Part shown: positions 1 to 25,222 of the stretch, piece after piece
Layout of the letters: every line of letters starts with the position of its first letter
How positions within the stretch are numbered: the stretch's first letter is position 1
Source of the DNA: a virus
Taxonomy: Duplodnaviria; Caudoviricetes
Strand: one strand, 5' to 3'
DNA length: 64,000 bases
Virus record (IMG/VR): IMGVR_UViG_3300021411_000005
Coordinates: 11,909-75,908 of that record
Position numbers and translations under genes: made by a program
Notes under the pieces: model-generated
Told to the model about the DNA's origin: nothing
What the model saw: the letters and a program-made list of their open reading frames with translations, nothing else
Databases searched by the model: none

Positions 1-998
1 ACGGCGGCAAAGGACAGGGTGTCCGCGATCTCCCCGAAGGACTGCTGGAACTTCTCCGGGTCGCCGACCACGGCGCAGAAGTCGCGCCGGGACCGGCCGT
101 CGATGATGACCGTCTTGACCGCTTCGGTCTTCCCGGCGCCGGGCACCCCGGTGACCAGGGTGTGAGGCAGTGCGCGCGGGTTCTCCGCGTCGTCGTCCCC
201 CACCACCCAGATGGCCATGTAGGAGCCGTCCGACCGGCCGCCGAAGACCAGCGCGCCGTCCGCGATGGAGGCGCCCGCCAGGGACGGCCCCGTCCAGTGC
301 AGCGTCCTGGCAGAACTCTCCTTCGGCTCGAACGCCAGGAGCACCTGGTCCGCGCGGCCGGGGACAGCCGTCACGGACACTTCGTTCGGGTCCATGCCGA
401 CCGCGCTGGCAATCCGGTCCTTGTCGTTCTGGACGTCCGAAGCCGTGCCCTCACCCGGCTTGAGCTGGACCTTTGCCTCCACCCGGGTAGGGCTCTCCTT
501 CACCTTCTTCGTACGCGCCCCGGCCAGTGCGGACACCCGCTGGAACAGCGGGTCGCGGTGTCCCTGGGCCTTGTCCTCTTCGTGGTGCGGGGACATCGAC
601 GCGTGCCGGATGTTCCAGGCCAGGGACAGGACAACGGACCCGTAGCCCCAGGTGACAGCCATCATGTGGTCCAGCGGACCGGTGGCCGACGCCAGCGCGA
701 ACCAGCCGGTCACCGCTCCGCAGAAGGTCGTGGCCAGCGCCCGGGTGTGCTCATGACGGCGCGACCAGGTCAGGTGTGTGTAGCCGGTCAGGACGACCGC
801 TCCGGCGCCGGTCAGTACCGTCATGACCGGGTCGTCGCTCAACTGCCAGTTGGCCAGCAGCGCTGCGGGCATGGCGGAGCCCGTGATGCCCCAGGGGACC
901 AGGTGCGGGAGCAGCCGGGAACCGGCCAGCTCCGCCACACCCAGACGCTTGGTACGAACGTTCGACCTGCCCTTTTCCTTGCTGCTCACCGTGGTCAC
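1..998 (-). CDS. traB: FtsK/SpoIIIE-family conjugative DNA translocase (TraB-like), 3' end truncated by window edge
   Basis: Not in ORF track; read manually from GTG at 998 overlapping the upstream TGA (GTGA). N-terminal hydrophobic helices (HLVPWGITG..., LSLAWNIRH) and Walker A HTLVTGVPGAGKT; last gene of an spd-tra order typical of Streptomyces plasmids. Confidence 0.8.
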   Translation of the reverse strand, partial: MTTVSSKEKGRSNVRTKRLGVAELAGSRLLPHLVPWGITGSAMPAALLANWQLSDDPVMTVLTGAGAVVLTGYTHLTWSRRHEHTRALATTFCGAVTGWFALASATGPLDHMMAVTWGYGSVVLSLAWNIRHASMSPHHEEDKAQGHRDPLFQRVSALAGARTKKVKESPTRVEAKVQLKPGEGTASDVQNDKDRIASAVGMDPNEVSVTAVPGRADQVLLAFEPKESSARTLHWTGPSLAGASIADGALVFGGRSDGSYMAIWVVGDDDAENPRALPHTLVTGVPGAGKTEAVKTVIIDGRSRRDFCAVVGDPEKFQQSFGEIADTLSFAA

Positions 999-11481: not shown

Positions 11482-14154
11482 TCAGAAGGGAATCAGAGCG
11501 CTCTGCCCGATCTTGATCAGCTCCAGGATGCGGGCCTTCCCGACCTCCTCCTCATGCTTCCTGACCTCCCGGTACAGCGCGGACGCCTCCGCCTTGTCCT
11601 TCACCGCGGCAAAGCGGTCCTCCCAGGTCGGCTCCGGCGGAGCGGCCGGTGCGGAAGCCGCCTTGATGGCCTCCTTCCCGATGCCGACCAGATCGGCCAG
11701 CCGGGTGGGGGTGATGCTGCTGTCGGCCTTCGCCTGCCGGTACAGATCCAGCGCCCCGGCCCTGTCCTTCACCACGCCGAAGCGCTGCTCCCAGGTGACC
11801 ACTGGCGGGGCCGCAGGTGTCTGGGGGTCCTTCGCCAGAGCCGGAGTGTCCTCCTCCAGGCCGATGGCTTTCCGGCCGATAGCCTTCAGGTCGGCCAGCC
11901 GCTCCGGGGAGAGCCCGGCCGATTCGGCTTTCTTGTACATCCGGAACAGGTCCCCGCCCTCCCGGCAGGCGGAGAAGCGGTCCTCCCAGGTCGGGTCCGG
12001 CAGCTTGACCCGCTCCGGCGACGGCAGCGGGACGTCCACGGCAGCGCGCTCCAGCGCCTTCTTCGCCACGCCGACCAGCCTCTTCAGCTCCGCAGCCGGA
12101 AGTTTGTCCTTGAACTCCTGGTAGAGCGCGGACGCCTCCGCCTTGGTGGTGACCGCGTCGAACCGGTCCTCCAGGACCGGCCAGGGATCAGCGGCCATGT
12201 CCTGTTCCAGCGCGACCGCGGCGGCCGACGGCTCCGGCTGGTCGCAGAAGACGCAGAACGACCCGCTGTGCCCGTTGCCGTCGTCCAGGTATTCGTACCT
12301 GCACGGTTCCGGAGCAGCGGGGCAGAGCTGCTGGCCGGGCTCTTCGTCCTGGAGATCGGCGCCTCCGGCGGACCCGTGCGCGTTGGCCAGGACGTCCGCA
12401 GCGGACCGGCCGCCCTTCTTCACCGACGGGTGGCCGCTGTCCATCTGCGCGGCCGACGGCCTGGCGTAGCCCTCCGGACCGGTGGCCGCCGTGGCCAGCG
12501 CCCGGTCCAGGACGACCGTGGACACGGTGGGAGTCTTGGTCCTCTGCCAGTCGGAGATCCGCTGGCAGAGCTGTGCGCCTTCCCAGCCCTTGGCGATGTC
12601 CACGGCGTACAGGAGGCAGCGTTCCTCCCCGTACGGCATGTGCATCACGATGGCCACATCGTTACGGACCTCCGGGACAGCCGGTCCGGGCGGGTTATCG
12701 GTGTCGTGCCGCTGCCAGGACCACTTCACCGGACGGCCGACCGGCACCGCGATACCGGCGGTGTTCACGCCGTTGGCGTAGAGCGCCAACTGGATGATGA
12801 TCTCCATCCAGTTGTAGTCCAGGTCCGCGCCGGTCTTCACGTCACCGATGACGTGGTCCCCGGCTTTCAGGTCAATGAAGTTGCCCGTACCGGCCTCCAC
12901 GGTCACGTCCCGGACCACCTTCAGGATCCGGTCGAACGTCCCGACCACACCCAGTTCCAGCACCGCGGTGGACCGCTCGATCAGGTGCTCCACCACAGCG
13001 AACGGGGAGGTCTCCATGCGGTTCCGGTAGGCGACCACGTCACGGACGAATTCGTCCGGGATCTCCTCCAGCGCCTGAGTGCCTTCGTCGGCCTTCTCGG
13101 TGTGCGTGTGAAGGATGGTCCCCTTGTTGGCCCGGGTGCTGGCACCGGCCGCGGTCTTGGCCCGGTCCACCAGCCGGTTCAGTGCCTCGCGCCGGGACTT
13201 GGCCAGTTCGTACGGAGCCTGTCCGTTCTCCCGGCCGTCCTTGACGATCTCCCGGGCCTTGCGCCCCAGCTCCAGATCGGAGACCAGGCCCAGCACGGTC
13301 ATCCGGTTGCCCCACAGCTCCAGCGCGAACCGGTCGGACGCTTTCTTCACGAAGTTCGTTGCCCGGGTGGCGGTCCACTTCTTCCCGGTGTGCGGGTTCG
13401 GAGCGTGGTAACGGCCGTTGACGACGCGCAGCTTCGGGCGCAGGAGCGGCTTGTCCTGCTCCGCGTCGGAGTCCCCGCAGCAGTCCTCTCCCTCCCAGCC
13501 GCCGGAACCGTCGGCGCGGATCTGGTCGCCTTCGTCAAAGTGGTCACCGCAGGAGGAGCACGATCCGTCGTAGCGGGCGGGGAAATACGGCGGGTCGTCC
13601 TCCTCTTCGTCGTCGTCACCGCCGGGCCCGCCGTTGCCGTCCAGGAACGCGTCAGCGTCGCCTCCGCTGGCTCCGGAGCTGCCGGACGGCCCGCCATTCA
13701 GGAACGCCTCTGCGGGGTCCTCTGCGGCCTGCTCAGGCTCCGCGGCGGGGTCCTGCGCCCGCAGCCGCTCCGTACGGCCGGGCGCATTTTCCGCGGGAGT
13801 CCCCGGCTGCCCGGTGCGCGCCTGCGCGTCGGTGACCGGCGCCCGGTGCGGGTTGGGGCCGCCGTGGTCCGGCCGCGTGCCGTACTTCGTGGCCCGGTCA
13901 ATGATCTCCTCCGCGGCGGCCGTCACGTCGGCCGGTGCGTCCGGTGCGGCCAGCGCGGTGTTGGCGTCCCGGAACTCACGGGCGTACGGGCGCAGATCCC
14001 CGGTGGCCTCCTCCGCGCCCTTCGGCAGGTCACTGCCTCCGGCGCACCGGTTGTCCCGCGGTCCGTGCGTACGGATCCGTCCGTTGGCGGTCAGGGCGCA
14101 GTCCGCATCGCAGACCTGGCACTTCCCCCGGCCGAAGTCCTGTCGTGCTGCCAT
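11482..14154 (-). CDS. Multidomain PD-(D/E)xK (RecE/Cas4-like) exonuclease with Zn-binding modules and four C-terminal helical repeats
   Basis: GTFDRIL...GDVKTG...QLALYA; CQVC, CSSC...CC and C..CVFC modules; repeats beginning (W)EDRF. Confidence 0.75.
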   Translation of the reverse strand: MAARQDFGRGKCQVCDADCALTANGRIRTHGPRDNRCAGGSDLPKGAEEATGDLRPYAREFRDANTALAAPDAPADVTAAAEEIIDRATKYGTRPDHGGPNPHRAPVTDAQARTGQPGTPAENAPGRTERLRAQDPAAEPEQAAEDPAEAFLNGGPSGSSGASGGDADAFLDGNGGPGGDDDEEEDDPPYFPARYDGSCSSCGDHFDEGDQIRADGSGGWEGEDCCGDSDAEQDKPLLRPKLRVVNGRYHAPNPHTGKKWTATRATNFVKKASDRFALELWGNRMTVLGLVSDLELGRKAREIVKDGRENGQAPYELAKSRREALNRLVDRAKTAAGASTRANKGTILHTHTEKADEGTQALEEIPDEFVRDVVAYRNRMETSPFAVVEHLIERSTAVLELGVVGTFDRILKVVRDVTVEAGTGNFIDLKAGDHVIGDVKTGADLDYNWMEIIIQLALYANGVNTAGIAVPVGRPVKWSWQRHDTDNPPGPAVPEVRNDVAIVMHMPYGEERCLLYAVDIAKGWEGAQLCQRISDWQRTKTPTVSTVVLDRALATAATGPEGYARPSAAQMDSGHPSVKKGGRSAADVLANAHGSAGGADLQDEEPGQQLCPAAPEPCRYEYLDDGNGHSGSFCVFCDQPEPSAAAVALEQDMAADPWPVLEDRFDAVTTKAEASALYQEFKDKLPAAELKRLVGVAKKALERAAVDVPLPSPERVKLPDPTWEDRFSACREGGDLFRMYKKAESAGLSPERLADLKAIGRKAIGLEEDTPALAKDPQTPAAPPVVTWEQRFGVVKDRAGALDLYRQAKADSSITPTRLADLVGIGKEAIKAASAPAAPPEPTWEDRFAAVKDKAEASALYREVRKHEEEVGKARILELIKIGQSALIPF

Positions 14155-15126: not shown

Positions 15127-16824
15127 TCACACCTTCGCCGCATGCGGATCGAGCGCCCGGGACGCCAGCTTCACGGCCATGGCGTCACTGATCACTCCCT
15201 GGGTCATGGCGTCGGTGACGCGCAGGCCCATGGACTTCGCCTTGGTCACCATCGCCCGGGGCGGGGTCCTCCTCCGCCAGGTGGCCTGGCGCTGGACTCC
15301 GAAGGACGCATGCTCCTCCGCTTCGGTCTCTGCCCAGGCAGTCGCCATGCCCAGTGACAGGCCCTTGTGGAGCCTCCGCGGCCGGGCCTGGGAAGTAACC
15401 CGCTCCGGCCAGCCGTAGACGTCCCAGGTACCGTTCTCGCGCGGCCAGAGCAGGACGAAGCCTCCGCCCACCGGGATGAACATCACCCCGCCCGCCGTAC
15501 GCAGCCAGACGTGGCTGGACGCGGTGAAGATGTCCAGGTCCCGGTGTTTGAGCAGGAAGGCAGTGTTCCCGGTGTGGTGCTCCACCCGGTCGGCGTGCTC
15601 CTCCTGCCGGATGTACGCCTCTGCCAGGGACTCCCCGTCGGCCGGTGCGGTGACCAGGCCGGGCTCCAGGTCTATCAGGGTGGAGATCCGGCCGCCGGTC
15701 CCGGCCAGGTCGATAACCAGCGCGTCGGTCTTGCCCGGCCACGGCCGGAGCACCCGGCCCACCATCTGGATGAACAGCGGTGCCGACTGGGTGGGGCGCG
15801 CGATCACCGCGCAGTCGGCCATGGGGAAGTCCGCGCCTTCGGTGAGGACCATGCAGTTGACCATGACCGTGATCCCGCCGGAGCGGAAGGCGGAGTAGAT
15901 GGCCAGCCGCTCCTCCCGGGGGGTCGCTCCCGAGACGGCCGCGCAGCGCACCCCGCGCTTGTCCAGCTCCCGGACGGTCTCCGCAGTGGTCGCCACGGTC
16001 GGCGTGAAGACGATGGTCCGGCGCTCCGGAGCGTGCTGGAGGACGGTCCGCGCGATCAGCGCGGGGCCGCCGGACTCCATCAGCGCGTCTCCGAGCGCCC
16101 CGGCCGCGTAGTCCCCGCCGGTCTTCTTCACCGACGCCAGGTCCATGCCGGACTCGATCTCCCGGCCGCGGACATCCACCAGGTGGCCCTGGCTGATCAT
16201 CCACAGCACCGACCGGCTGTAGACCACATCGTTCCAGACGTCTCCCAGGCCGACGCCGTCACCACGCTTCAGGGTGGCGGTGAAGCCGACGCACTTGGTC
16301 CCGGCGCGGTAGTCCTCTTCGTCGTCCTTCAGGCCGCTGTAGCACCCGAGCGCGGCCATGATGTCCCGGTAGCTCTTCGCGGTGGCGTGGTGGCATTCAT
16401 CCACGATCACCAGGCCGATCTCCCCCACCGCATCGGCCGCGTCCAGGAGCTGGCGCATCCGGCGCTCCCGGGCCAGCGTCTGGACCGAGCACACCATCAC
16501 GTCGGCTGTCACCTCGTTGTCGGCAGCCTTCACCTTGCCGATGACCAGGTCCGGCGCCGCGGTACGCAGCTTGTCGATGGCCTGGTCAGCCAGTTCGTCA
16601 CGGTGCACCAGGACCACGACCCGGTAGGGCCGCCCCCAGGATGCGTTCGTGGACGGTTTCCAGACCTCCACGAACTGGCGGATCAGGCCGGAGAAGACCA
16701 CGGTCTTCCCGGAGCCGGTCGGCAGGACGACGGCCGGGCGCTGCATGCCGCTGGCCCAGGCGGACCAGGCGGCGCCTACGGCCTCTTCCTGGTACTCCCG
16801 CAGGTGGATCCCGGTGGCTGTCAC
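15127..16824 (-). CDS. SF2 DEAD/DEAH-box helicase
   Basis: LREYQ, LPTGSGKT, VDECHH, GFTATL, QMVGRVLR. Confidence 0.92.
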   Translation of the reverse strand: MTATGIHLREYQEEAVGAAWSAWASGMQRPAVVLPTGSGKTVVFSGLIRQFVEVWKPSTNASWGRPYRVVVLVHRDELADQAIDKLRTAAPDLVIGKVKAADNEVTADVMVCSVQTLARERRMRQLLDAADAVGEIGLVIVDECHHATAKSYRDIMAALGCYSGLKDDEEDYRAGTKCVGFTATLKRGDGVGLGDVWNDVVYSRSVLWMISQGHLVDVRGREIESGMDLASVKKTGGDYAAGALGDALMESGGPALIARTVLQHAPERRTIVFTPTVATTAETVRELDKRGVRCAAVSGATPREERLAIYSAFRSGGITVMVNCMVLTEGADFPMADCAVIARPTQSAPLFIQMVGRVLRPWPGKTDALVIDLAGTGGRISTLIDLEPGLVTAPADGESLAEAYIRQEEHADRVEHHTGNTAFLLKHRDLDIFTASSHVWLRTAGGVMFIPVGGGFVLLWPRENGTWDVYGWPERVTSQARPRRLHKGLSLGMATAWAETEAEEHASFGVQRQATWRRRTPPRAMVTKAKSMGLRVTDAMTQGVISDAMAVKLASRALDPHAAKV

Positions 16825-17336
16825 CTCTGATCCTCCCAGCGGTCCGGCGCTGTGATGTTCGGACCGGTCGCCAGGTATCCGGTCAGGTGCCACCTGGCCC
16901 ACTCCGGGATCCTGTCGATACCCACGACAGCCAGCGCTTCGGCGAACAGGCGGTTGTCACCGGACGGGTCCTCCTCTTCGGTGAAGGAGAGGGGTCCGAT
17001 GCCTTCGTTTGCCAGTGCTGCGTCACACCGGATCAGGAGGTCCGCCACCGCAGAGGACATGGCCGGGCGCCGGACCGGTGTGTACGGCTCTGCCTTCCCC
17101 CGCGTGAGGATGCGGTGGACCAGGATCCAGCGCTGTGCCCCGCCGGGGTAGTCGGCCGTCCGCTTGTGCACGTCGATACGGCAGGACTCGATGTCCTGGT
17201 CCGTCGGCTGGGTCTTCCGCCGCGGGACGATGAAGGAGGACCAGTGCGAGTGCTCGAACCGGTAAACGGTCCCGTTGATAACCCGTTCCCGGTTTTCCTG
17301 GCGATGGGTGACATTCTTGTCCACTCCGGTGCTCAT
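16821..17336 (-). CDS. Hypothetical protein
   Basis: ATG overlapping the upstream stop; in operon. Confidence 0.55.
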   Translation of the reverse strand: MSTGVDKNVTHRQENRERVINGTVYRFEHSHWSSFIVPRRKTQPTDQDIESCRIDVHKRTADYPGGAQRWILVHRILTRGKAEPYTPVRRPAMSSAVADLLIRCDAALANEGIGPLSFTEEEDPSGDNRLFAEALAVVGIDRIPEWARWHLTGYLATGPNITAPDRWEDQR

Positions 17337-19837: not shown

Positions 19838-20311
19838 ATGGCTGCGCGCATCAAGGCCATTGAGACCCAGTACGCGGGGTGCCGGTTCCGGTCCCGCCTG
19901 GAGGCCCGCTGGGCCGTGTTCTGGGACACCCTGGAGTGGCCCTGGGAGTACGAGCCGCAGGGGTTCGCCCTGCCGTCGGGCAACTACCTGCCGGACTTCC
20001 GGGTCCACGTCCCGGACAGCTCGAACGGGCCCGTGTGGTTCGAGGTGAAGCCGCCCGGCGTGCCGGACGACCCGCGGTGGCCGGAGCTGGCCGCCATGAC
20101 GGACGCAATGATCATCGTGGCCAAGGGCATGCACCGGTCGGGGGATTCGTGCAGGAGCGCGCACACCGCTGACGCGTACAGCGGGACGGCGGTCGGCAGG
20201 GACCTCAAGCTGTGGATGCACAGCCCTGCGGCGGCCTGGGACGCGGCGTCCGGCGCCCGGTTCGAGCACGGGGAATCGCCGGTCACCCGGCGCGGCCGGA
20301 GGAAGCGGTGA
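19838..20311 (+). CDS. PD-(D/E)xK-like nuclease
   Basis: FRSRLEARWAVFWD...WEYEPQGF...YLPDF...WFEVKP. Confidence 0.7.
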   Translation: MAARIKAIETQYAGCRFRSRLEARWAVFWDTLEWPWEYEPQGFALPSGNYLPDFRVHVPDSSNGPVWFEVKPPGVPDDPRWPELAAMTDAMIIVAKGMHRSGDSCRSAHTADAYSGTAVGRDLKLWMHSPAAAWDAASGARFEHGESPVTRRGRRKR

Positions 20312-23300
20312 CGGCCGCCGCGGTGACGGAGGTCTCCCCCGTCCATGCGGAGGAACTGGCATCGAGCTGCATCGGGGCGGACCACATCGCAGCGCGCGGC
20401 TACCGCACGCTGTACGGCAGCGACGACGACCGGGCGGAACTGAAGACCCTGCGGATCCCGCGGTTCATGTGGCGCCACGACACGGCGTTCCCCGGGCTGC
20501 TCATCCCGGAGTACCGGGTGACCGGGGAGCTGATCGGCTACCAGTGGAAGCCCGCGGTCCCGCAGCGGAACTCCGACGGGAAGCCGGTGAAGTACGCCTC
20601 CCAGTCGGGGACGCCGAACCACCTGGACATCCCGCCGCTGGTCAGCGACAAGGTAAGGGATCCCAGCAATCCGCTGTGGATCACCGAAGGCGTGAAGAAG
20701 GCGGACTGCCTGGCCACGCTGGAGAAGGCCGTCATCACACTGACCGGCGTCTACAACTGGCGGAGCAAGCTGGGCACGCTGGGGGACTGGGAGGACATCC
20801 CGATCCAGGGGCGGACCGTCGTGGTCTGTTTCGACTCCGACGCGCGCAGCAAGCGGCCGGTCATGCTGGCCATGCGCCGTCTGGGGCTCTGGCTCCAGTC
20901 CAAGGGCGCCGCGGAGGTCCGGTACCTGATCGTCCCCTCCGAGGTTCCGCAGGGGGAGGACCGGGCCGCCGTTGAGGTCAAGGGCGTGGACGACTACTTC
21001 CACGCCGGGGGAACCCTGGAGGATCTGGGGGGCCACGCGGCGCGGGAGCTGCCGGTGGACGGCGCACGGGACGCGGCCTTCTCGGACGCGGTCCTGGCCG
21101 ACACGGTGTGCAGTGAGGAGCTGGAGGGCCAGTACAAGTGGTCGTCCGGCCTGGGCTGGATGGTCTGGACGGGGAAGTTCTGGAAGAGCGCGGAAGACGT
21201 CACGGTGACCGAAGCCGTACGGCTGTGGGTCCTGTCCCAGTTCCACCGGGTGATCGACCTCCAGGGCGCGGACCCGAACCGGGACATGCGCTCCCAGATC
21301 GATGGCTGGCGCAGTGCGCTGGCCGCGTCCAAGCTCAGCAGCCTGGTCAAGCTCAGCCGGGGAATCCTGGAGTGCGACGCATCGGATTTCGACTCCGATG
21401 CGGACGTCCTGAACTGCCCGAACGGCATTCTGGACCTGCGCACGGGCGTGCTGACGACGCACGACCCGGACCGGCTGATGACGAAGATGGCCGGGGTGGA
21501 CTACGTCAAGGGCGCGCAGCACCCGGACTGGGACACTGCGCTGACCGCCCTGCCCGCCGATGTCCTGGAGTGGTTCCAGCTCCGCATCGGACAGGCCCTG
21601 ACCGGCCACCTGACCCCGGACGACCTGGCCGTCATCTGCCAGGGAGGCGGGGAGAACGGCAAGTCCACGGTCTTCAACGCGCTGACCACGGCCGCGGGGA
21701 AGTACCACATCACCGTGGCGGACCGGGCGATGCTGGGCAACGCCAGCGACAACCACCCCACGGAGATGACCGATTTCCTGGGTGCACGGTTCGCCATTCT
21801 GGAGGAGACCCCGGAGTCCCGGCGGCTGGACACCAACCGGCTGAAGAAGCTGGTCGGCACCCGGGAGATCACCGCCCGGAAGATCCGGCAGAACGACATC
21901 ACGTTCACCACGACACACAGCCTCTTCGTGAACACGAACTTCCGCCCGGTGGTGGATGAGACCGACCACGGGACCTGGAGGCGCCTGGCGCTGCTCATCT
22001 TCCCGTACACGTACCGGAAGACCCCGGCGGAGGTTCTGGGGCCCCAGGACCGCCTGGGGGACGGCGCGCTGCGCCAGCGGATAGAGACCCAGCCGGTCAT
22101 GGAGGCCGCACTGGCCTGGGCCGTCCAGGGCGCTCAGCGCTGGTACGACATGGAGCGGATCATGCCGGACATGCCGGACCGGGTGCGGGGGGACACCCTG
22201 GGGTGGCGGAAGGAGAGTGACCCGGTGATGACCTTCGTGGACGAAGAGATCGTGTTCGATCCGGACGCTTTCATCATCGGCTCAGAACTACGGAGCGTGT
22301 TCAACCACAAGATCACGGAGAAGGGCGGCCGGGAGTGGGGCGACAAGACGTTCAGCGCCCGTTTCGGGGGCCATGACCTGGTGGTTCAGCACGGTGTGGA
22401 GTACAAGGTCACCAAAAACGGAACGGGCCTCTCCACCCGCCTGCGGAACCCCTCTTCGGCGTCCACCGTACGAGCCTGGCGAGGCGTCCGATTCTCCGAT
22501 CCGGACGCCGAAACAGGGGGTGGGGCTGAGAACGACCCATTTGGAAAATCCCCGGTCGGAGGGGGTAACCAAGATCAGGTTACGGCAGTTACATCTGCGC
22601 CGATAAGCACAAATCCTGGATCTCGCATAGAGGTTAACCGCCAACGTGTAACTGCTGTAACCGATCTTGAAATCACCCTTCCCAGCGATCAAGGAAATGA
22701 GGAAGAATTGGAGAACTCGATCATGCTTCCCGATGATCCTTTCGGTGAGGCGGAGGACCCCCCGGCCGCTGTGTGGGAGGGCCCGCTGCCGGACCGGGTG
22801 ACATTCGACCTGGAGACCGCTTCGGCCGACGAAATGTTTACTTACGGTGACGGTTTCGTCCGGCTGGCGGGCTTCGCGGCCGACGACGGAGAACCGCGCA
22901 CCGGGGTGGATATCGGGCAGCTTGTCTGGCTGCTGGAGCGCGTCCCGTCGGCCAGCCACAACGGCATGCAGTTCGACGGTCCGGCGCTGGCCTACCACCA
23001 CGGGATGGACTGGGAGAAGTTCAGCGCGCTGGCGGAGGACACGGAGATCAAGGCCCGGCTGGCCGACCCCCCGCGGTCCAAGGAAACCGGCGGGTCGGAC
23101 GACAAGTACGACCTGGACCACACCGCGGAGAAGCTGGGGGTCCGGGGCAAGACCGACAGCGCGAAGCGGCTGAAGAACAAGTTCGGCGGCTGGGACCGGA
23201 TCCCGCAGGACGACCCGGAGTACCACGCCTACCTGTCGGGTGACGTGGAGGCCGGGCGCGCGGTGGACCGCCTGCTCCCCGTCACGGAGTACGGGCGCCG

Positions 23301-24513
23301 GGAGCACCGGCTGGCCGGGCTGGCCGGGCGGATGACGCTGAACGGGTGCCGGGTGGACGTCCCGCTGCTGAAGGAGCGGATCCGGGAGGGGCAGGAGAAG
23401 AAGGCTTCCGCCCTGGAGGCGCTCAGCGGTACCTACAGCCTCCCGCTGGGCCGTGAGGTGATGCGGGGCCGCGGGAAGGCGAAGGCGCCCGCCTGGGAGC
23501 CGTTCAGCTCCCCGCTGGCCACTACGGAGGGCGGCGCCTGGCTGGCCGACCTCTGGAAGCAGTTCGGCGTGGTCCGTCCCCCGCGGACTCCGAACGGCAA
23601 CCTGTCCACCGCCGCGGAGCGGCTGAAGGAGGTGGCGGAGAACAGGCACTGCCCGCCGGAGCTGAAGACCGCGCTGGAGCTGATGGGGATCGTCACCACC
23701 ACCAGGACCGTCTACCAGACCGTGGAGAAGTACCTGACCGTGGAGGGGCGCGTCCATCCGACGGTCAGCATGCGGCAGGCGTCCGGCCGGTGGTCCGTCA
23801 CCAAGCCGGGTCTGACCGTCTTCGGCAAGCGGGACGGCCGCCACATCGAACGGGACGTGATCGTCCCGGAGGAAGGCCACCTCCTGGTGACCTGTGACCT
23901 GGCCCAGGTGGACATGCGCGCCGTGGCCGCGCACTGCCAGGACGAGAACTACATGCAGTTGTTCGAGCCCGGCCGGGACGCGCACGCGGAGATTGCGGCG
24001 CTGATCGGGGTGTCCCGGCAGGACGCCAAGCCGCTGGGCCACGGCTACAACTACGGCATGGGCCGTGCCCGGATGAAGCGGGACGGCCACGATCCGGAAC
24101 TGGTGGACGCGTTTTTCGACGGCATGGAGAGCCAGTTCCCGGTCAAGATGGCGTGGACCAAGGACGTCATTGCCCGGGGCACCGCCGGGGAGCTGCTGGA
24201 CAACGGGTTCGGCCGGATGATGCGCTGCGACCCGCGGTCGGCCTACACCGTGGCGCCCGCGCTGATGGGCCAGGGCGGCGCCCGGGACATCACCTGTGAA
24301 GTGCTGCTCCGGCTGATCGACCGGCACCCGGAGTACCAGCCCTACCTGCGCGCCTACGTCCACGATGAGTTCGTCTTCTCCGTACCGGAGGACCGGGCGG
24401 AGGAGATCGGGGCGGAGATCAAGGACGCGTTCACCTGGGAGTGGAAGGGTGTGCCGATCCTGGCCGACCTGTCCGGCCCGGGTCCGTCCTGGGGTGCGGT
24501 GAGCGCGAAGTGA
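20308..24513 (+). CDS. Trifunctional replication protein: DUF3854-type TOPRIM primase + P4/D5-type SF3 helicase + family A DNA polymerase (with 3'-5' exonuclease)
   Basis: Single 1401-aa ORF: WITEGVKKAD, CFDSD, KGVDD; GGENGKST, AILEE, FVNTNFRP; FDLET, HNGMQFD, YLSGDV; CDLAQVDMR, RQDAKPLGHGYNYG, YVHDE. Confidence 0.9.
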   Translation: MTAAAVTEVSPVHAEELASSCIGADHIAARGYRTLYGSDDDRAELKTLRIPRFMWRHDTAFPGLLIPEYRVTGELIGYQWKPAVPQRNSDGKPVKYASQSGTPNHLDIPPLVSDKVRDPSNPLWITEGVKKADCLATLEKAVITLTGVYNWRSKLGTLGDWEDIPIQGRTVVVCFDSDARSKRPVMLAMRRLGLWLQSKGAAEVRYLIVPSEVPQGEDRAAVEVKGVDDYFHAGGTLEDLGGHAARELPVDGARDAAFSDAVLADTVCSEELEGQYKWSSGLGWMVWTGKFWKSAEDVTVTEAVRLWVLSQFHRVIDLQGADPNRDMRSQIDGWRSALAASKLSSLVKLSRGILECDASDFDSDADVLNCPNGILDLRTGVLTTHDPDRLMTKMAGVDYVKGAQHPDWDTALTALPADVLEWFQLRIGQALTGHLTPDDLAVICQGGGENGKSTVFNALTTAAGKYHITVADRAMLGNASDNHPTEMTDFLGARFAILEETPESRRLDTNRLKKLVGTREITARKIRQNDITFTTTHSLFVNTNFRPVVDETDHGTWRRLALLIFPYTYRKTPAEVLGPQDRLGDGALRQRIETQPVMEAALAWAVQGAQRWYDMERIMPDMPDRVRGDTLGWRKESDPVMTFVDEEIVFDPDAFIIGSELRSVFNHKITEKGGREWGDKTFSARFGGHDLVVQHGVEYKVTKNGTGLSTRLRNPSSASTVRAWRGVRFSDPDAETGGGAENDPFGKSPVGGGNQDQVTAVTSAPISTNPGSRIEVNRQRVTAVTDLEITLPSDQGNEEELENSIMLPDDPFGEAEDPPAAVWEGPLPDRVTFDLETASADEMFTYGDGFVRLAGFAADDGEPRTGVDIGQLVWLLERVPSASHNGMQFDGPALAYHHGMDWEKFSALAEDTEIKARLADPPRSKETGGSDDKYDLDHTAEKLGVRGKTDSAKRLKNKFGGWDRIPQDDPEYHAYLSGDVEAGRAVDRLLPVTEYGRREHRLAGLAGRMTLNGCRVDVPLLKERIREGQEKKASALEALSGTYSLPLGREVMRGRGKAKAPAWEPFSSPLATTEGGAWLADLWKQFGVVRPPRTPNGNLSTAAERLKEVAENRHCPPELKTALELMGIVTTTRTVYQTVEKYLTVEGRVHPTVSMRQASGRWSVTKPGLTVFGKRDGRHIERDVIVPEEGHLLVTCDLAQVDMRAVAAHCQDENYMQLFEPGRDAHAEIAALIGVSRQDAKPLGHGYNYGMGRARMKRDGHDPELVDAFFDGMESQFPVKMAWTKDVIARGTAGELLDNGFGRMMRCDPRSAYTVAPALMGQGGARDITCEVLLRLIDRHPEYQPYLRAYVHDEFVFSVPEDRAEEIGAEIKDAFTWEWKGVPILADLSGPGPSWGAVSAK
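22578..22662. repeat. 16-bp inverted repeat in an AT-richer patch inside the replication gene (candidate origin)
   Basis: GGTTACGGCAGTTACA (22578-22593) and TGTAACTGCTGTAACC (22647-22662) match 15/16 as reverse complements; 53-nt spacer; extra GGTAACC and GGTTAACC nearby. Confidence 0.75.
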
Positions 24514-25222
24514 TCGAGAGAGAGAGAGAGAGAGCGGTGTCCGGCCCCGGATCCTGGATCTTTTCGGAGGCGGAGGCGGGGCCGCCATGGGGTACCACAT
24601 GGCTGGATGGGATGTGACCGGCGTGGACCTGGCGCCGCAGCCCAACTACCCGTTCCGGTTCGTCCAGGCCGATGCGCTGACCTTCCCACTGGACGGCTAC
24701 GACGCTGTTCACCTGTCCCCGCCCTGCCAGGGGTACGGGCGGCTGCGGCACCGGTCGGGCGGGAAGGTCTATCCGCGGCTGATTGCTCCGATGCGGGAAC
24801 GCCTCTTCCGGGAGGCGCCGGACATGCCGTACGTGATGGAGAACGTGGAGGACGCGCTGCCCCATCTGATCAGTCCGGTGATGCTCTGCGGGTCGTCGTT
24901 CGGCCTTCGGGTGCGTCGACACCGGTATTTCGAAACGAACTGGAAGCTGGTCCCGGTCGGCTGCGATCACGGCTGGCAGGACAGGCACAAGCCCTACCGG
25001 CTGTACGTCGGCAAGGCCCGGACCAACGGGCTCGGGTATCGGGAGAGCGGGATCCAGCAAGTGTTCGGCGGTAACCACAACGTGGGCGGCCGGTCGCACT
25101 TTTTCAAGTCGGTGGCCATGGGGATTGACTGGATGACTGAAACCGAGCTGAACGAGTCGATCCCTCCGGCGTACACCGCTCTGGTGGGAACACAACTGAT
25201 GGAGCTGGTGAGTGCGAAGTGA
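24510..25222 (+). CDS. Compact C5 DNA cytosine methyltransferase, out of frame at its 5' end as sequenced
   Basis: Motif I RILDLFGGGGG lies upstream of the first in-frame ATG (24587) with no in-frame start; SPPCQ, ENV, RRHR and ESIPP motifs intact; coupled GTG at 24510 comes into frame if one GA is lost. Confidence 0.85.
24516..24534 (+). repeat. (GA)9G simple sequence repeat
   Basis: 19-nt perfect dinucleotide tract immediately after GTG ATC. Confidence 0.95.

What the first reader, a model, noticed from the sequence alone, without database searches (positions are those of the whole stretch)
20308..24513. One-polypeptide replisome: TOPRIM primase + SF3 helicase + family A polymerase
Seen: all catalytic motifs of three replication enzymes in one uninterrupted 1401-aa ORF. 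Known: primase-helicase fusions are common, and Plasmodium PfPrex is a primase-helicase-PolA fusion but with a DnaB-type helicase. Inference: DUF3854-SF3-PolA is a rare independent solution. Since SF3 helicases are usually hexameric, up to six polymerase domains could be tethered at the fork, and it may serve both plasmid and lytic replication.
Basis: partly seen in the sequence, partly recalled or inferred. Interest (0 to 1): 0.8.

Follow-up and report, generated by a model that had tools for sequence, protein, structure and literature searches.

The report
Fused primase-helicase-polymerase with embedded origin
A Streptomyces-type phage-plasmid makes its DNA primase, helicase, proofreading exonuclease and polymerase as one 1401-residue protein, a design already noted once in 2016, and the DNA that encodes the flexible joint between helicase and polymerase looks like the element's own replication origin.

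Summary
Window 20308-24513 (+) is one uninterrupted 1401-aa ORF. It carries a DnaG-type primase core (DUF3854), D5_N plus an SF3 ATPase, a winged-helix domain, a 3'-5' exonuclease and a family A polymerase. Every catalytic residue is invariant in 21 relatives.

The fusion is not an artefact. More than 120 protein clusters carry all four Pfam domains, including one on the complete linear Streptomyces plasmid pS1D4-14.2, which also carries this phage's capsid and portal genes.

It is neither new nor rare. Kazlauskas et al. 2016 described the same DnaG-primase/SF3-helicase/PolA fusion in Pas55 of Actinoplanes phage phiAsp2, and Pas55 is a co-linear homologue. About 95 of the 150 nearest PolA representatives are fused.

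The new result is in the linker DNA (about 22525-22750). GC falls to 48-51% and GC3 to 0.33-0.53. The stretch holds a dyad that is unique in the genome: two inverted arms, each with a pentamer repeated 9 bp apart, around a low-GC spacer. The layout is conserved with compensatory changes in 10 fused relatives, although the encoded peptides differ. It also recurs in non-coding DNA just after the unfused helicase gene of small Streptomyces plasmids.

I read it as the replication origin, translated as a linker (about 0.55).

The parts
20298..20305 (+). Ribosome-binding site (GGAGGAAG) ahead of the GTG start. The start overlaps the stop of the upstream 170-aa gene, which indicates translational coupling.
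   Evidence: start position agrees with homologues
20308..24513 (+). Whole replicase ORF: 1401 aa plus stop.
20308..21060 (+). DnaG-type primase catalytic core (N-terminal subdomain plus TOPRIM; Pfam DUF3854). No zinc-binding domain. Acidic residues E127, D176, D178, D228 and D229 are invariant.
21136..21543 (+). D5_N domain (aa 277-412).
21640..21984 (+). SF3 helicase ATPase core (DUF5906, aa 445-559) with Walker A, Walker B and motif C. Related to the ASFV C962R / D5 helicases.
22225..22497 (+). Winged-helix domain after the helicase (aa about 640-730). Candidate origin-binding domain. Unfused plasmid homologues end about 10 aa after its last conserved motif.
22498..22797 (+). Interdomain linker (aa about 731-830). 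Hypervariable in length and sequence, low GC (48-51%) and GC3 (0.33-0.53), yet always open in frame. Contains two conserved acidic DPF motifs (nt 22534-22542 and 22735-22743).
22570..22594 (.). Left arm of the dyad. It contains the pentamer GTTAC twice, 9 bp apart (22579 and 22588).
22595..22645 (.). Low-GC spacer between the arms. Its central motif at 22625-22637 is unique in the window and is shared with the non-coding region after the helicase gene of small Streptomyces plasmids.
22646..22669 (.). Right arm of the dyad, the reverse complement of the left arm (GTAAC at 22648 and 22657).
22723..22725 (+). In-frame ATG (M806) with GGAG 9 nt upstream. Possible internal start for a free exonuclease-polymerase. 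Present in 5 of 9 relatives only.
22798..23337 (+). 3'-5' proofreading exonuclease domain (Exo I-III motifs invariant).
23560..24492 (+). Family A DNA polymerase domain (Pfam aa 1085-1395), motifs A, B and C invariant.

Best explanation
The gene encodes a working single-chain replicase of a tailed phage that can also live as a plasmid in Streptomyces-like hosts. The N-terminal 730 residues form a self-loading primase-helicase of the P4 alpha / SaPI PriRep type: a DnaG-type primase core, D5_N, an SF3 ATPase and a C-terminal winged helix. A disordered acidic linker joins it to a proofreading family A polymerase.

The fusion arose when translation read through what used to be the non-coding gap between adjacent primase-helicase and polymerase genes. 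That gap held, and still holds, the element's replication origin. The origin has four pentamer sites in two inverted pairs, with sites 9 bp apart within a pair and the pairs about 70 bp apart, around an easily melted low-GC spacer.

Inferred mechanism: winged-helix domains bind the pentamers and one helicase ring loads on each side of the spacer. The rings then unwind outwards, while the attached primase and polymerase domains prime and extend.

Shown here: the domains, the catalytic residues, the conservation of the fusion, the DNA-level conservation of the dyad, and its homology to non-coding plasmid DNA. Inferred: every biochemical activity, the oligomeric state, binding of the dyad by the protein, and origin function.
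For: Domains and motifs.

The fusion is conserved. All 120 best homologues carry the four Pfam domains, on contigs of up to 75-100 kb. One lies on the complete linear plasmid pS1D4-14.2, which also encodes this phage's major capsid protein (59% identity) and portal (58%). Frame 0 has no stop across the linker in 9 of 9 relatives, against 1-8 stops in the other frames.

The ancestral state is visible. Adjacent separate primase and PolA genes occur in BabyGotBac and phiC31, in the same frame with a 105-nt gap that holds a long hairpin.

The linker DNA is constrained as DNA.
- It is the lowest GC and GC3 stretch of the ORF here and in 10 relatives.
- The paired-pentamer dyad is unique in the 76-kb genome, with 2 sites against 0.00 expected.
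- RNAalifold predicts 22 pairs, 15 of them with compensatory changes. 91.8% of cells are paired, against 66% in shuffles and 31-41% in slid controls.
- The pentamer differs between clades (GTTAC, GTAAC, GTAC, GGCAG) while the 9-bp and roughly 70-bp spacings stay.
- The arms encode unrelated peptides in different relatives.

The same design lies in non-coding DNA 57 bp after the stop of the unfused helicase gene in two small Streptomyces plasmids. Those plasmids share the central spacer motif with the window's coding linker.

Precedent: the SaPI PriRep origin consists of penta- or hexanucleotide iterons oppositely disposed around an AT-rich region downstream of rep, bound by the C-terminal winged helix (bioRxiv 10.64898/2026.10.17.759575). 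In Streptomyces plasmid pWTY27, RepA binds a long inverted repeat of the iteron region (PMC3583192).
Against: There is no experimental evidence for any activity, for binding, or for origin function.

A 22-25-bp stem with strong covariation would equally fit an RNA or single-strand DNA hairpin. Folding z-scores are -6.4 for RNA and -5.8 for DNA.

The winged-helix assignment is weak. The best Foldseek E-value is 3.6e-3, and the first 80 residues of that model have low confidence.

The primase core has no zinc-binding domain, which DnaG-type primases normally use for template recognition.

The cumulative GC-skew minimum lies near 18 kb, about 4.6 kb from the dyad, and it coincides with the switch in gene orientation.

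phiAsp2 Pas55 is fused but shows no comparable GC3 dip or dyad, so the origin-in-linker feature is not tied to the fusion as such.

Stand-alone PolA genes of 53% identity exist next to separate primase-helicase genes, so the fusion is not mechanistically required.
Confidence: 0.55

Rival explanations
1. The fused replicase is real, but the dyad acts in the mRNA. It would be a long stem-loop inherited from the hairpin that separates the primase and polymerase genes in unfused phages. It would tune expression, for example by pausing ribosomes, by attenuating or processing the transcript, or by controlling an internal start that yields a free exonuclease-polymerase alongside the full-length protein.
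For: The RNA fold is strong: -50 kcal/mol with z -6.4. 15 of 22 pairs show compensatory changes and there are several G-U cells. Unfused phages have tight 18-24-nt hairpins in the 105-nt gap between primase and PolA. An in-frame start with a Shine-Dalgarno-like sequence lies 40-75 nt after the right arm in the window (ATG 22723) and in L006, L010, L012 and L013.
Against: A simple hairpin does not need a pentamer repeated at a fixed 9-bp spacing inside each arm, yet this is kept in every clade even where the pentamer itself changes. The same design lies in non-coding DNA after a terminator in small plasmids, where it would hardly be transcribed as part of the rep mRNA. Four of nine relatives have no usable internal start, and two have no start codon at all in that stretch. 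There is no Rfam match. No sigma-70-type promoter lies in the linker.
Confidence: 0.22
2. The dyad is a binding site for another DNA-binding protein of the element. It could be an operator for the small helix-turn-helix protein encoded just upstream of the replicase in relatives, a partition site, or a packaging site. It would not be the origin.
For: Four short repeats in dyad arrangement suit any dimeric or tetrameric DNA binder. Small HTH genes lie directly upstream of the replicase in relatives: HTH_17 in L011, HTH_3 in L018, and an HTH protein in pS1D4-14.2.
Against: The site is unique in the genome, which is unusual for operators of a phage regulator. It keeps a fixed position directly after the winged-helix coding part, in fused genes and in unfused plasmids alike. 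The upstream small genes belong to different families in different relatives, while the dyad design is constant.
Confidence: 0.13
3. The long ORF is an artefact or a decaying gene: an assembly join or a lost stop codon with no function. In that case the two halves act as separate proteins or not at all.
For: The coding GC3 signal is lost in the linker. Close PolA relatives exist as stand-alone genes.
Against: The fusion recurs in more than 120 independent clusters from NCBI, JGI, ENA and Logan assemblies, including a finished plasmid. All catalytic residues are invariant. The linker is always in frame and free of stops despite its low GC content.
Confidence: 0.03

Closest known systems
Pas55 of Actinoplanes phage phiAsp2: a DnaG primase + SF3 helicase + PolA fusion (Kazlauskas, Krupovic and Venclovas 2016, PMC4889955)
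   Same: Same domain order and nearly the same length (1415 vs 1401 aa). The two align co-linearly end to end (hhalign E 4.7e-98). The exonuclease-PolA part is 41% identical and the DUF3854 part 25%. The host is also an actinomycete.
   Different: The helicase middle of Pas55 gives no D5_N or DUF5906 Pfam hit. Its linker shows no GC3 collapse and no paired-pentamer dyad. phiAsp2 is a 58.6-kb phage not known as a plasmid.
Self-loading primase-helicases with a winged-helix origin binder: phage P4 alpha, and SaPI PriRep5 with its iteron / AT-rich / iteron origin (bioRxiv 10.64898/2026.10.17.759575). N15 RepA also belongs here, from my own knowledge.
   Same: Primase, then SF3 ATPase, then a C-terminal winged helix. 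The origin is made of short repeats oppositely disposed around an AT-rich stretch directly after the helicase coding part. NCBI names the homologues 'phage/plasmid primase, P4 family'.
   Different: Those proteins stop after the winged helix and recruit a host polymerase. Here the reading frame runs on through the origin-like DNA into a polymerase.
Small Streptomyces plasmids with a PrimPol gene, a P4-family helicase gene and a downstream dyad (NZ_CP109526.1, pSM17B); pWTY27 repAB plus iteron (PMC3583192)
   Same: The helicase-winged-helix part is 42-44% identical. The same inverted arrays of a pentamer at 9-bp spacing surround a low-GC spacer that carries the same central motif.
   Different: In the plasmids the primase is an AEP PrimPol encoded by a separate gene, there is no polymerase gene in the module, and the dyad is non-coding and follows a terminator.
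Plasmodium PfPrex, the apicoplast primase-helicase-PolA polyprotein
   Same: A TOPRIM primase, a helicase and a proofreading PolA in one translation product (PMC10201439).
   Different: The PfPrex helicase is DnaB/T7 gp4-like (SF4) rather than SF3. Its PolA belongs to the Aquificae-like subfamily; the Prex polymerase matches my profile at only E 9.4e-18, against 1.6e-30 for Taq. PfPrex is described as a polyprotein, and nothing here shows processing.
Phage T7 replisome: the gp4 primase-helicase hexamer plus gp5 PolA
   Same: A DnaG-type primase, a ring helicase and a proofreading PolA work together. From my own knowledge, gp4 tethers polymerases through an acidic C-terminal tail ending in an aromatic residue. 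The linker here, and the C-terminus of the unfused BabyGotBac primase, carry acidic DPF motifs.
   Different: In T7 the association is non-covalent, the helicase is SF4, and thioredoxin acts as the processivity factor.
PolA-S3H fusions of Sputnik-like virophages and polinton-like viruses (PMC11071308)
   Same: A family A polymerase and an SF3 helicase in one chain.
   Different: The order is reversed, with the polymerase N-terminal. There is no exonuclease domain and no TOPRIM primase, and the hosts are eukaryotic.

Membership tests
P4-family / D5-like primase-helicase | N-terminal DnaG-type (TOPRIM) primase core with conserved acidic residues | tested here: met
   DUF3854 E 9.6e-13. E127, D176/D178 and D228/D229 are invariant. 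The 30 best PDB fold matches of the model are all DnaG, T4 gp61, T7 gp4 or Twinkle primase cores.
P4-family / D5-like primase-helicase | D5_N domain followed by an SF3 ATPase with Walker A, Walker B and motif C | tested here: met
   D5_N E 5.3e-17 and DUF5906 E 2.4e-09. The profile matches ASFV C962R at E 4.8e-25. The motif residues are invariant.
P4-family / D5-like primase-helicase | C-terminal winged-helix DNA-binding domain | tested here: inconclusive
   In the model, aa 640-735 have pLDDT above 90. The best fold matches are the RFX DNA-binding domain (E 3.6e-3, probability 1.0) and the C962R C-terminal region. No match reaches E 1e-3.
P4-family / D5-like primase-helicase | Zinc-binding domain ahead of the primase core, as in DnaG and T7 gp4 | tested here: not met
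   No conserved Cys/His cluster in aa 1-120 of 21 homologues. The model aligns to the RNA-polymerase domain only. Whether P4-type primases need such a domain was not checked.
Family A DNA polymerase with proofreading | Polymerase motifs A, B and C | tested here: met
   DNA_pol_A E 9.3e-27. Taq and Klenow match at E 1e-30. D1197, R1237, K1241 and H1352-D1353-E1354 are invariant in 34 diverse relatives.
Family A DNA polymerase with proofreading | Exo I, II and III motifs of the 3'-5' exonuclease | tested here: met
   D834, E836, D890, Y975 and D979 are invariant in 34 relatives; N885 is conserved in at least 90% of them and invariant in the 21 closer homologues.
Single-chain primase / SF3 helicase / PolA replicase (Pas55 type) | All three modules in one ORF, in the order primase, helicase, polymerase, with homology to Pas55 | tested here: met
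   description of the type in PMC4889955
PfPrex | DnaB/gp4-type (SF4) helicase between the primase and PolA | tested here: not met
   The helicase is SF3 (D5_N and DUF5906). No DnaB-type Pfam match at E <= 0.01.
Iteron / AT-rich / iteron origin of self-loading SF3 helicases (SaPI type) | Short repeats oppositely disposed around an AT-rich stretch, directly after the helicase-winged-helix coding part | tested here: met
   Pentamer pairs at 22579/22588 and 22648/22657 around a spacer of about 50% GC, roughly 80 bp after the last winged-helix motif. The design is kept in 10 fused relatives and 2 plasmids.
Iteron / AT-rich / iteron origin of self-loading SF3 helicases (SaPI type) | Specific binding by the helicase's winged helix, and initiation of replication at the site | not testable with these tools
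   Needs gel-shift or footprinting and replication assays.

The most novel reading that the evidence does not exclude
The linker between helicase and polymerase is a translated replication origin. One ORF would then contain a whole minimal replicon: the origin, its binding domain, primase, helicase, proofreader and polymerase. The peptide sequence of the linker would be dictated by the DNA sites (for example, VTAVT is simply the pentamer pair read in frame). If so, this gene alone might drive replication of any DNA that carries it in high-GC actinomycetes. It would also be a clear case of a cis-acting element that was captured into coding sequence by a gene fusion and kept working.
Probability: 0.45. 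Interest if true: 0.7.

Novelty: new member of a known kind. Interest (0 to 1): 0.5.

Why it matters
The fused replicase itself is a homologue of a type noted bioinformatically in 2016. As far as the searched literature shows, no protein of this type has been studied at the bench. It is not a curiosity of one phage.

The fixed 1:1 ratio of helicase to polymerase makes the family a natural test case for how many polymerases a ring helicase can use at a fork.

The candidate origin inside the linker, if confirmed, would do three things. It would explain why the linker is kept open yet varies so much. It would give a compact replicon for actinomycete genetics. And it would show how a non-coding origin can survive being read through by a gene fusion.

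Tried and rejected
- pZL12, the known Streptomyces plasmid-phage (GQ919031), is not of this family and has no fused replicase among my hits. Its paper is not held in the library.
- Single-protein scans of genome contigs and viral contigs returned only one locus each. Relatives cannot be drawn for a virus record, so I have no count per host species.
- A simple sigma-70 promoter scan found nothing in the linker. Rfam found nothing.
- The internal-start idea (a free polymerase from M806) holds for only 5 of 9 relatives, so I rejected it as a family-wide feature.
- The DPF acidic motif as a relic of a polymerase-binding tail is partly supported. It is seen at the C-terminus of the BabyGotBac primase, and an acidic/aromatic tail is seen in L017. 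It is absent from phiC31 gp9a and from Pas55. I keep it as a weak idea only.
- Paper searches for DUF3854, for 'primase-helicase-polymerase' and for strain S1D4-14 gave nothing on this protein. The PolA reclassification paper lists no such fusion for actinophage PolAs.
- The N15 repA origin could not be cited from the library.
- I sent no complex prediction, because no binding claim here rests on one.
Full report
**The ORF**

Window 20308-24513 on the plus strand is a single 1401-codon frame with no stop. The GTG start overlaps the TGA of the upstream 170-aa gene and follows a GGAGGAAG site. Homologues begin at the same point. GC3 is about 0.90 along the whole frame except in the linker, so there is no hidden frameshift.

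**The domains**

Pfam places four families above their curated cut-offs:
- DUF3854 at aa 118-231
- D5_N at 277-412
- DUF5906, the SF3 ATPase, at 445-559
- DNA_pol_A at 1085-1395

PHROGs agrees, calling a DNA primase over 269-739 and a DNA polymerase over 829-1396.

In an alignment of 21 homologues at 51-70% identity, every catalytic residue is invariant. This covers the TOPRIM acidic residues, Walker A and B and motif C, the three exonuclease motifs and the three polymerase motifs. In a wider set of 34 proteins at 25-44% identity, the polymerase motif residues and five of the six exonuclease motif residues stay invariant; N885 is conserved in at least 90%.

An AlphaFold model of aa 1-262 (pLDDT 88.8) matches only DnaG-type primase catalytic cores in its 30 best PDB hits. 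These are Aquifex and E. coli DnaG, T4 gp61, T7 gp4 and Twinkle. DUF3854 here is therefore a full DnaG-like RNA-polymerase core, not a bare TOPRIM fold. It has no zinc-binding domain.

A profile of the family matches Taq and Klenow polymerases at about 1e-30 and the hexameric ASFV C962R D5-like helicase at about 5e-25.

A model of aa 560-735 is confident only for aa 640-735. That part resembles winged-helix DNA binders (RFX DBD, E 3.6e-3) and the C-terminal part of C962R. The support is weak but consistent.

**The element**

The window is part of a 75.9-kb IMG/VR virus record rated 92% complete. It encodes a large terminase, a portal and a major capsid protein, plus an SF2 helicase and an exonuclease on the other strand.

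The best homologue in the plasmid collection is 47.7% identical over 99% of the length. It is a single gene on pS1D4-14.2, a finished 98.8-kb linear Streptomyces plasmid. That plasmid also encodes this phage's capsid protein (59% identity) and portal (58%). The family therefore includes plasmid-prophages.

pZL12, the known Streptomyces plasmid-phage, is unrelated in this respect.

**How common and how new**

All 120 best hits in the 90%-clustered protein collection carry the same four Pfam domains, are 1389-1808 aa long, and come from four independent sources. Many lie on contigs of 75-100 kb.

I searched the exonuclease-polymerase part alone against 1.84 billion 50%-identity representatives. 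About 95 of the best 150 are 1200-1800 aa with the polymerase at the C-terminus.

Of 34 such proteins scanned with Pfam, all carry DNA_pol_A, 19 DUF5906, 18 D5_N and 17 DUF3854. Three carry an AEP Prim-Pol domain.

Among 50,697 deposited phage genomes, only phiAsp2 has the fusion as one annotated gene.

The architecture has been published. [quoted passage not shown] Pas55 is a co-linear homologue, with hhalign E 4.7e-98, 41% identity in the polymerase part and 25% in the primase part. The 2023 reclassification of family A polymerases does not list this fusion.

The protein is thus a new member of a known, uncharacterised type.

**Origin of the fusion**

In Streptomyces phages BabyGotBac and phiC31, a homologous primase-helicase gene and a PolA gene are adjacent. 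In both phages they lie in the same frame and are separated by 105 nt. Each gap holds a long tight hairpin.

Stand-alone PolA genes of 53% identity also exist next to separate primase-helicase genes. The fusion is therefore a derived and not obligatory state. Loss of one stop codon would be enough to produce it.

**The linker DNA**

This is the new result. Nucleotides about 22525-22750 have 48-51% GC against 68% for the gene, and GC3 of 0.33-0.53 against 0.90. The same dip is the lowest point of the ORF in ten fused relatives of 33-69% identity.

Frame 0 has no stop there in any of nine relatives, while the other frames have 1-8. Selection therefore keeps the frame open.

Inside the dip lies a dyad:
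- The left arm is 22570-22594 and the right arm is 22646-22669.
- Each arm contains a pentamer twice at a 9-bp spacing.
- The two pentamer pairs start 69 bp apart.

All five GTWAC pentamers of the 4.2-kb gene sit in this 95-bp stretch. The paired form occurs nowhere else in the 76-kb genome, with 0.00 expected by chance.

In nine family members the arms stay complementary while the sequence changes. There are 22 pairs, 15 of them with compensatory changes. 91.8% of cells are paired, against 66% in shuffles and 31-41% when the partner is slid.

The pentamer is GTTAC, GTAAC or GTAC in different members and GGCAG in two distant ones. The 9-bp spacing within an arm is kept in all of them. The spacing between the pairs is 68-70 bp in the nine closer members and differs in the two distant ones.

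The peptides that the arms encode differ entirely between arms and between relatives. The constraint is therefore on the nucleic acid and not on the protein.

**The link to plasmids**

Two small Streptomyces plasmids carry a separate PrimPol gene followed by a helicase-winged-helix gene that is 42-44% identical to this one. Their helicase protein ends about ten residues after the motif that closes the winged-helix domain here.

A terminator hairpin follows. Then, 57 bp after the stop, come inverted arrays of a GTTCC pentamer at 9-bp spacing around the lowest-GC stretch of the region.

The middle of their spacer carries the same 13-14-nt motif as the middle of the window's spacer (22625-22637). 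In the window that motif occurs once, with 0.00 expected.

The linker-coding DNA of the fusion is therefore homologous to a non-coding element that sits where plasmid origins are expected.

**Interpretation**

The design closely resembles the origins of self-loading SF3 helicases. In SaPI PriRep5, penta- or hexanucleotide iterons are oppositely disposed around an AT-rich region just downstream of rep and are bound by the C-terminal winged helix. In Streptomyces plasmid pWTY27, RepA binds a long inverted repeat of the iteron region next to repAB. From my own knowledge, phage lambda and the linear plasmid-prophage N15 also place their origins inside the initiator gene, and the SV40 core origin uses four pentamers in inverted pairs.

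I therefore read the dyad as the element's origin, now translated as the interdomain linker (confidence about 0.55).

The main rival is an mRNA stem-loop with a regulatory role. The strong fold supports it, as does an internal start after the dyad in five of nine relatives. Against it stand the repeat inside each arm, the non-coding plasmid counterpart, and the relatives that lack any internal start.

**What remains inference**

All enzyme activities, the ring size, the number of polymerase domains used at a fork, binding of the dyad, and the use of this one replicase in both plasmid and lytic modes are inferred. GC skew does not help, because its minimum coincides with the switch in gene orientation near 18-19.6 kb.

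Noticed in passing
proteins P0027, P0050, P0093 (relatives, 1804-1808 aa): Three fused homologues are about 350 aa longer. Two of them (P0027, P0050) carry Pfam PF14528 (LAGLIDADG-type homing endonuclease) where the others carry the SF3 ATPase family; P0093 shows neither family. An intein probably sits in the helicase core.
   Followed up: no
L007:2839-2943 (phiC31 gp9a/gp11) and L002:4312-4416 (BabyGotBac gp50/gp49): In both distantly related phages the primase and polymerase genes are in the same frame, and the gap between them is exactly 105 nt. Each gap holds an 18-24-nt perfect or near-perfect hairpin.
   Followed up: partly
window 22570-22576 and 22663-22669, and the same places in L006, L010-L014: The base of the dyad contains GATC on both sides (CAAGATC ... 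GATCTTG) in most relatives. A DNA methyltransferase-like gene directly follows the replicase (window 24587-25222; an N6_N4_Mtase overlaps the replicase stop in the P0003 contig). The candidate origin might be controlled by methylation.
   Followed up: no
L016:3824-4261: A relative with a separate PrimPol-helicase gene has a 438-bp non-coding gap right after that gene. The gap is packed with perfect 16-nt inverted repeats, one of which contains the same CAAGATC word.
   Followed up: partly
window 1-998 (-), continuing to G000:C1:10900: Other notes of this scan call this 668-aa ORF TraB. In my Pfam scan at E <= 1e-3 it gave no FtsK/SpoIIIE hit, only a sub-threshold UbiA match. The conjugation reading needs its own check.
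   Followed up: partly
protein P0132 (1321 aa): One representative has the exonuclease-polymerase part at its N-terminus (residues 3-569) with about 750 further residues after it. This could be a reversed arrangement or a mis-called gene.
   Followed up: no
window 11482-14154 (-) and 15127-16902 (-): The divergent arm next to the replicase encodes an 890-aa protein with an exonuclease family match (phrog_466) and a 591-aa SF2 helicase (ResIII/DEAD/Helicase_C). The same helicase sits in the same place in pS1D4-14.2 and in the P0003 contig, so it belongs to the conserved replication module.
   Followed up: partly
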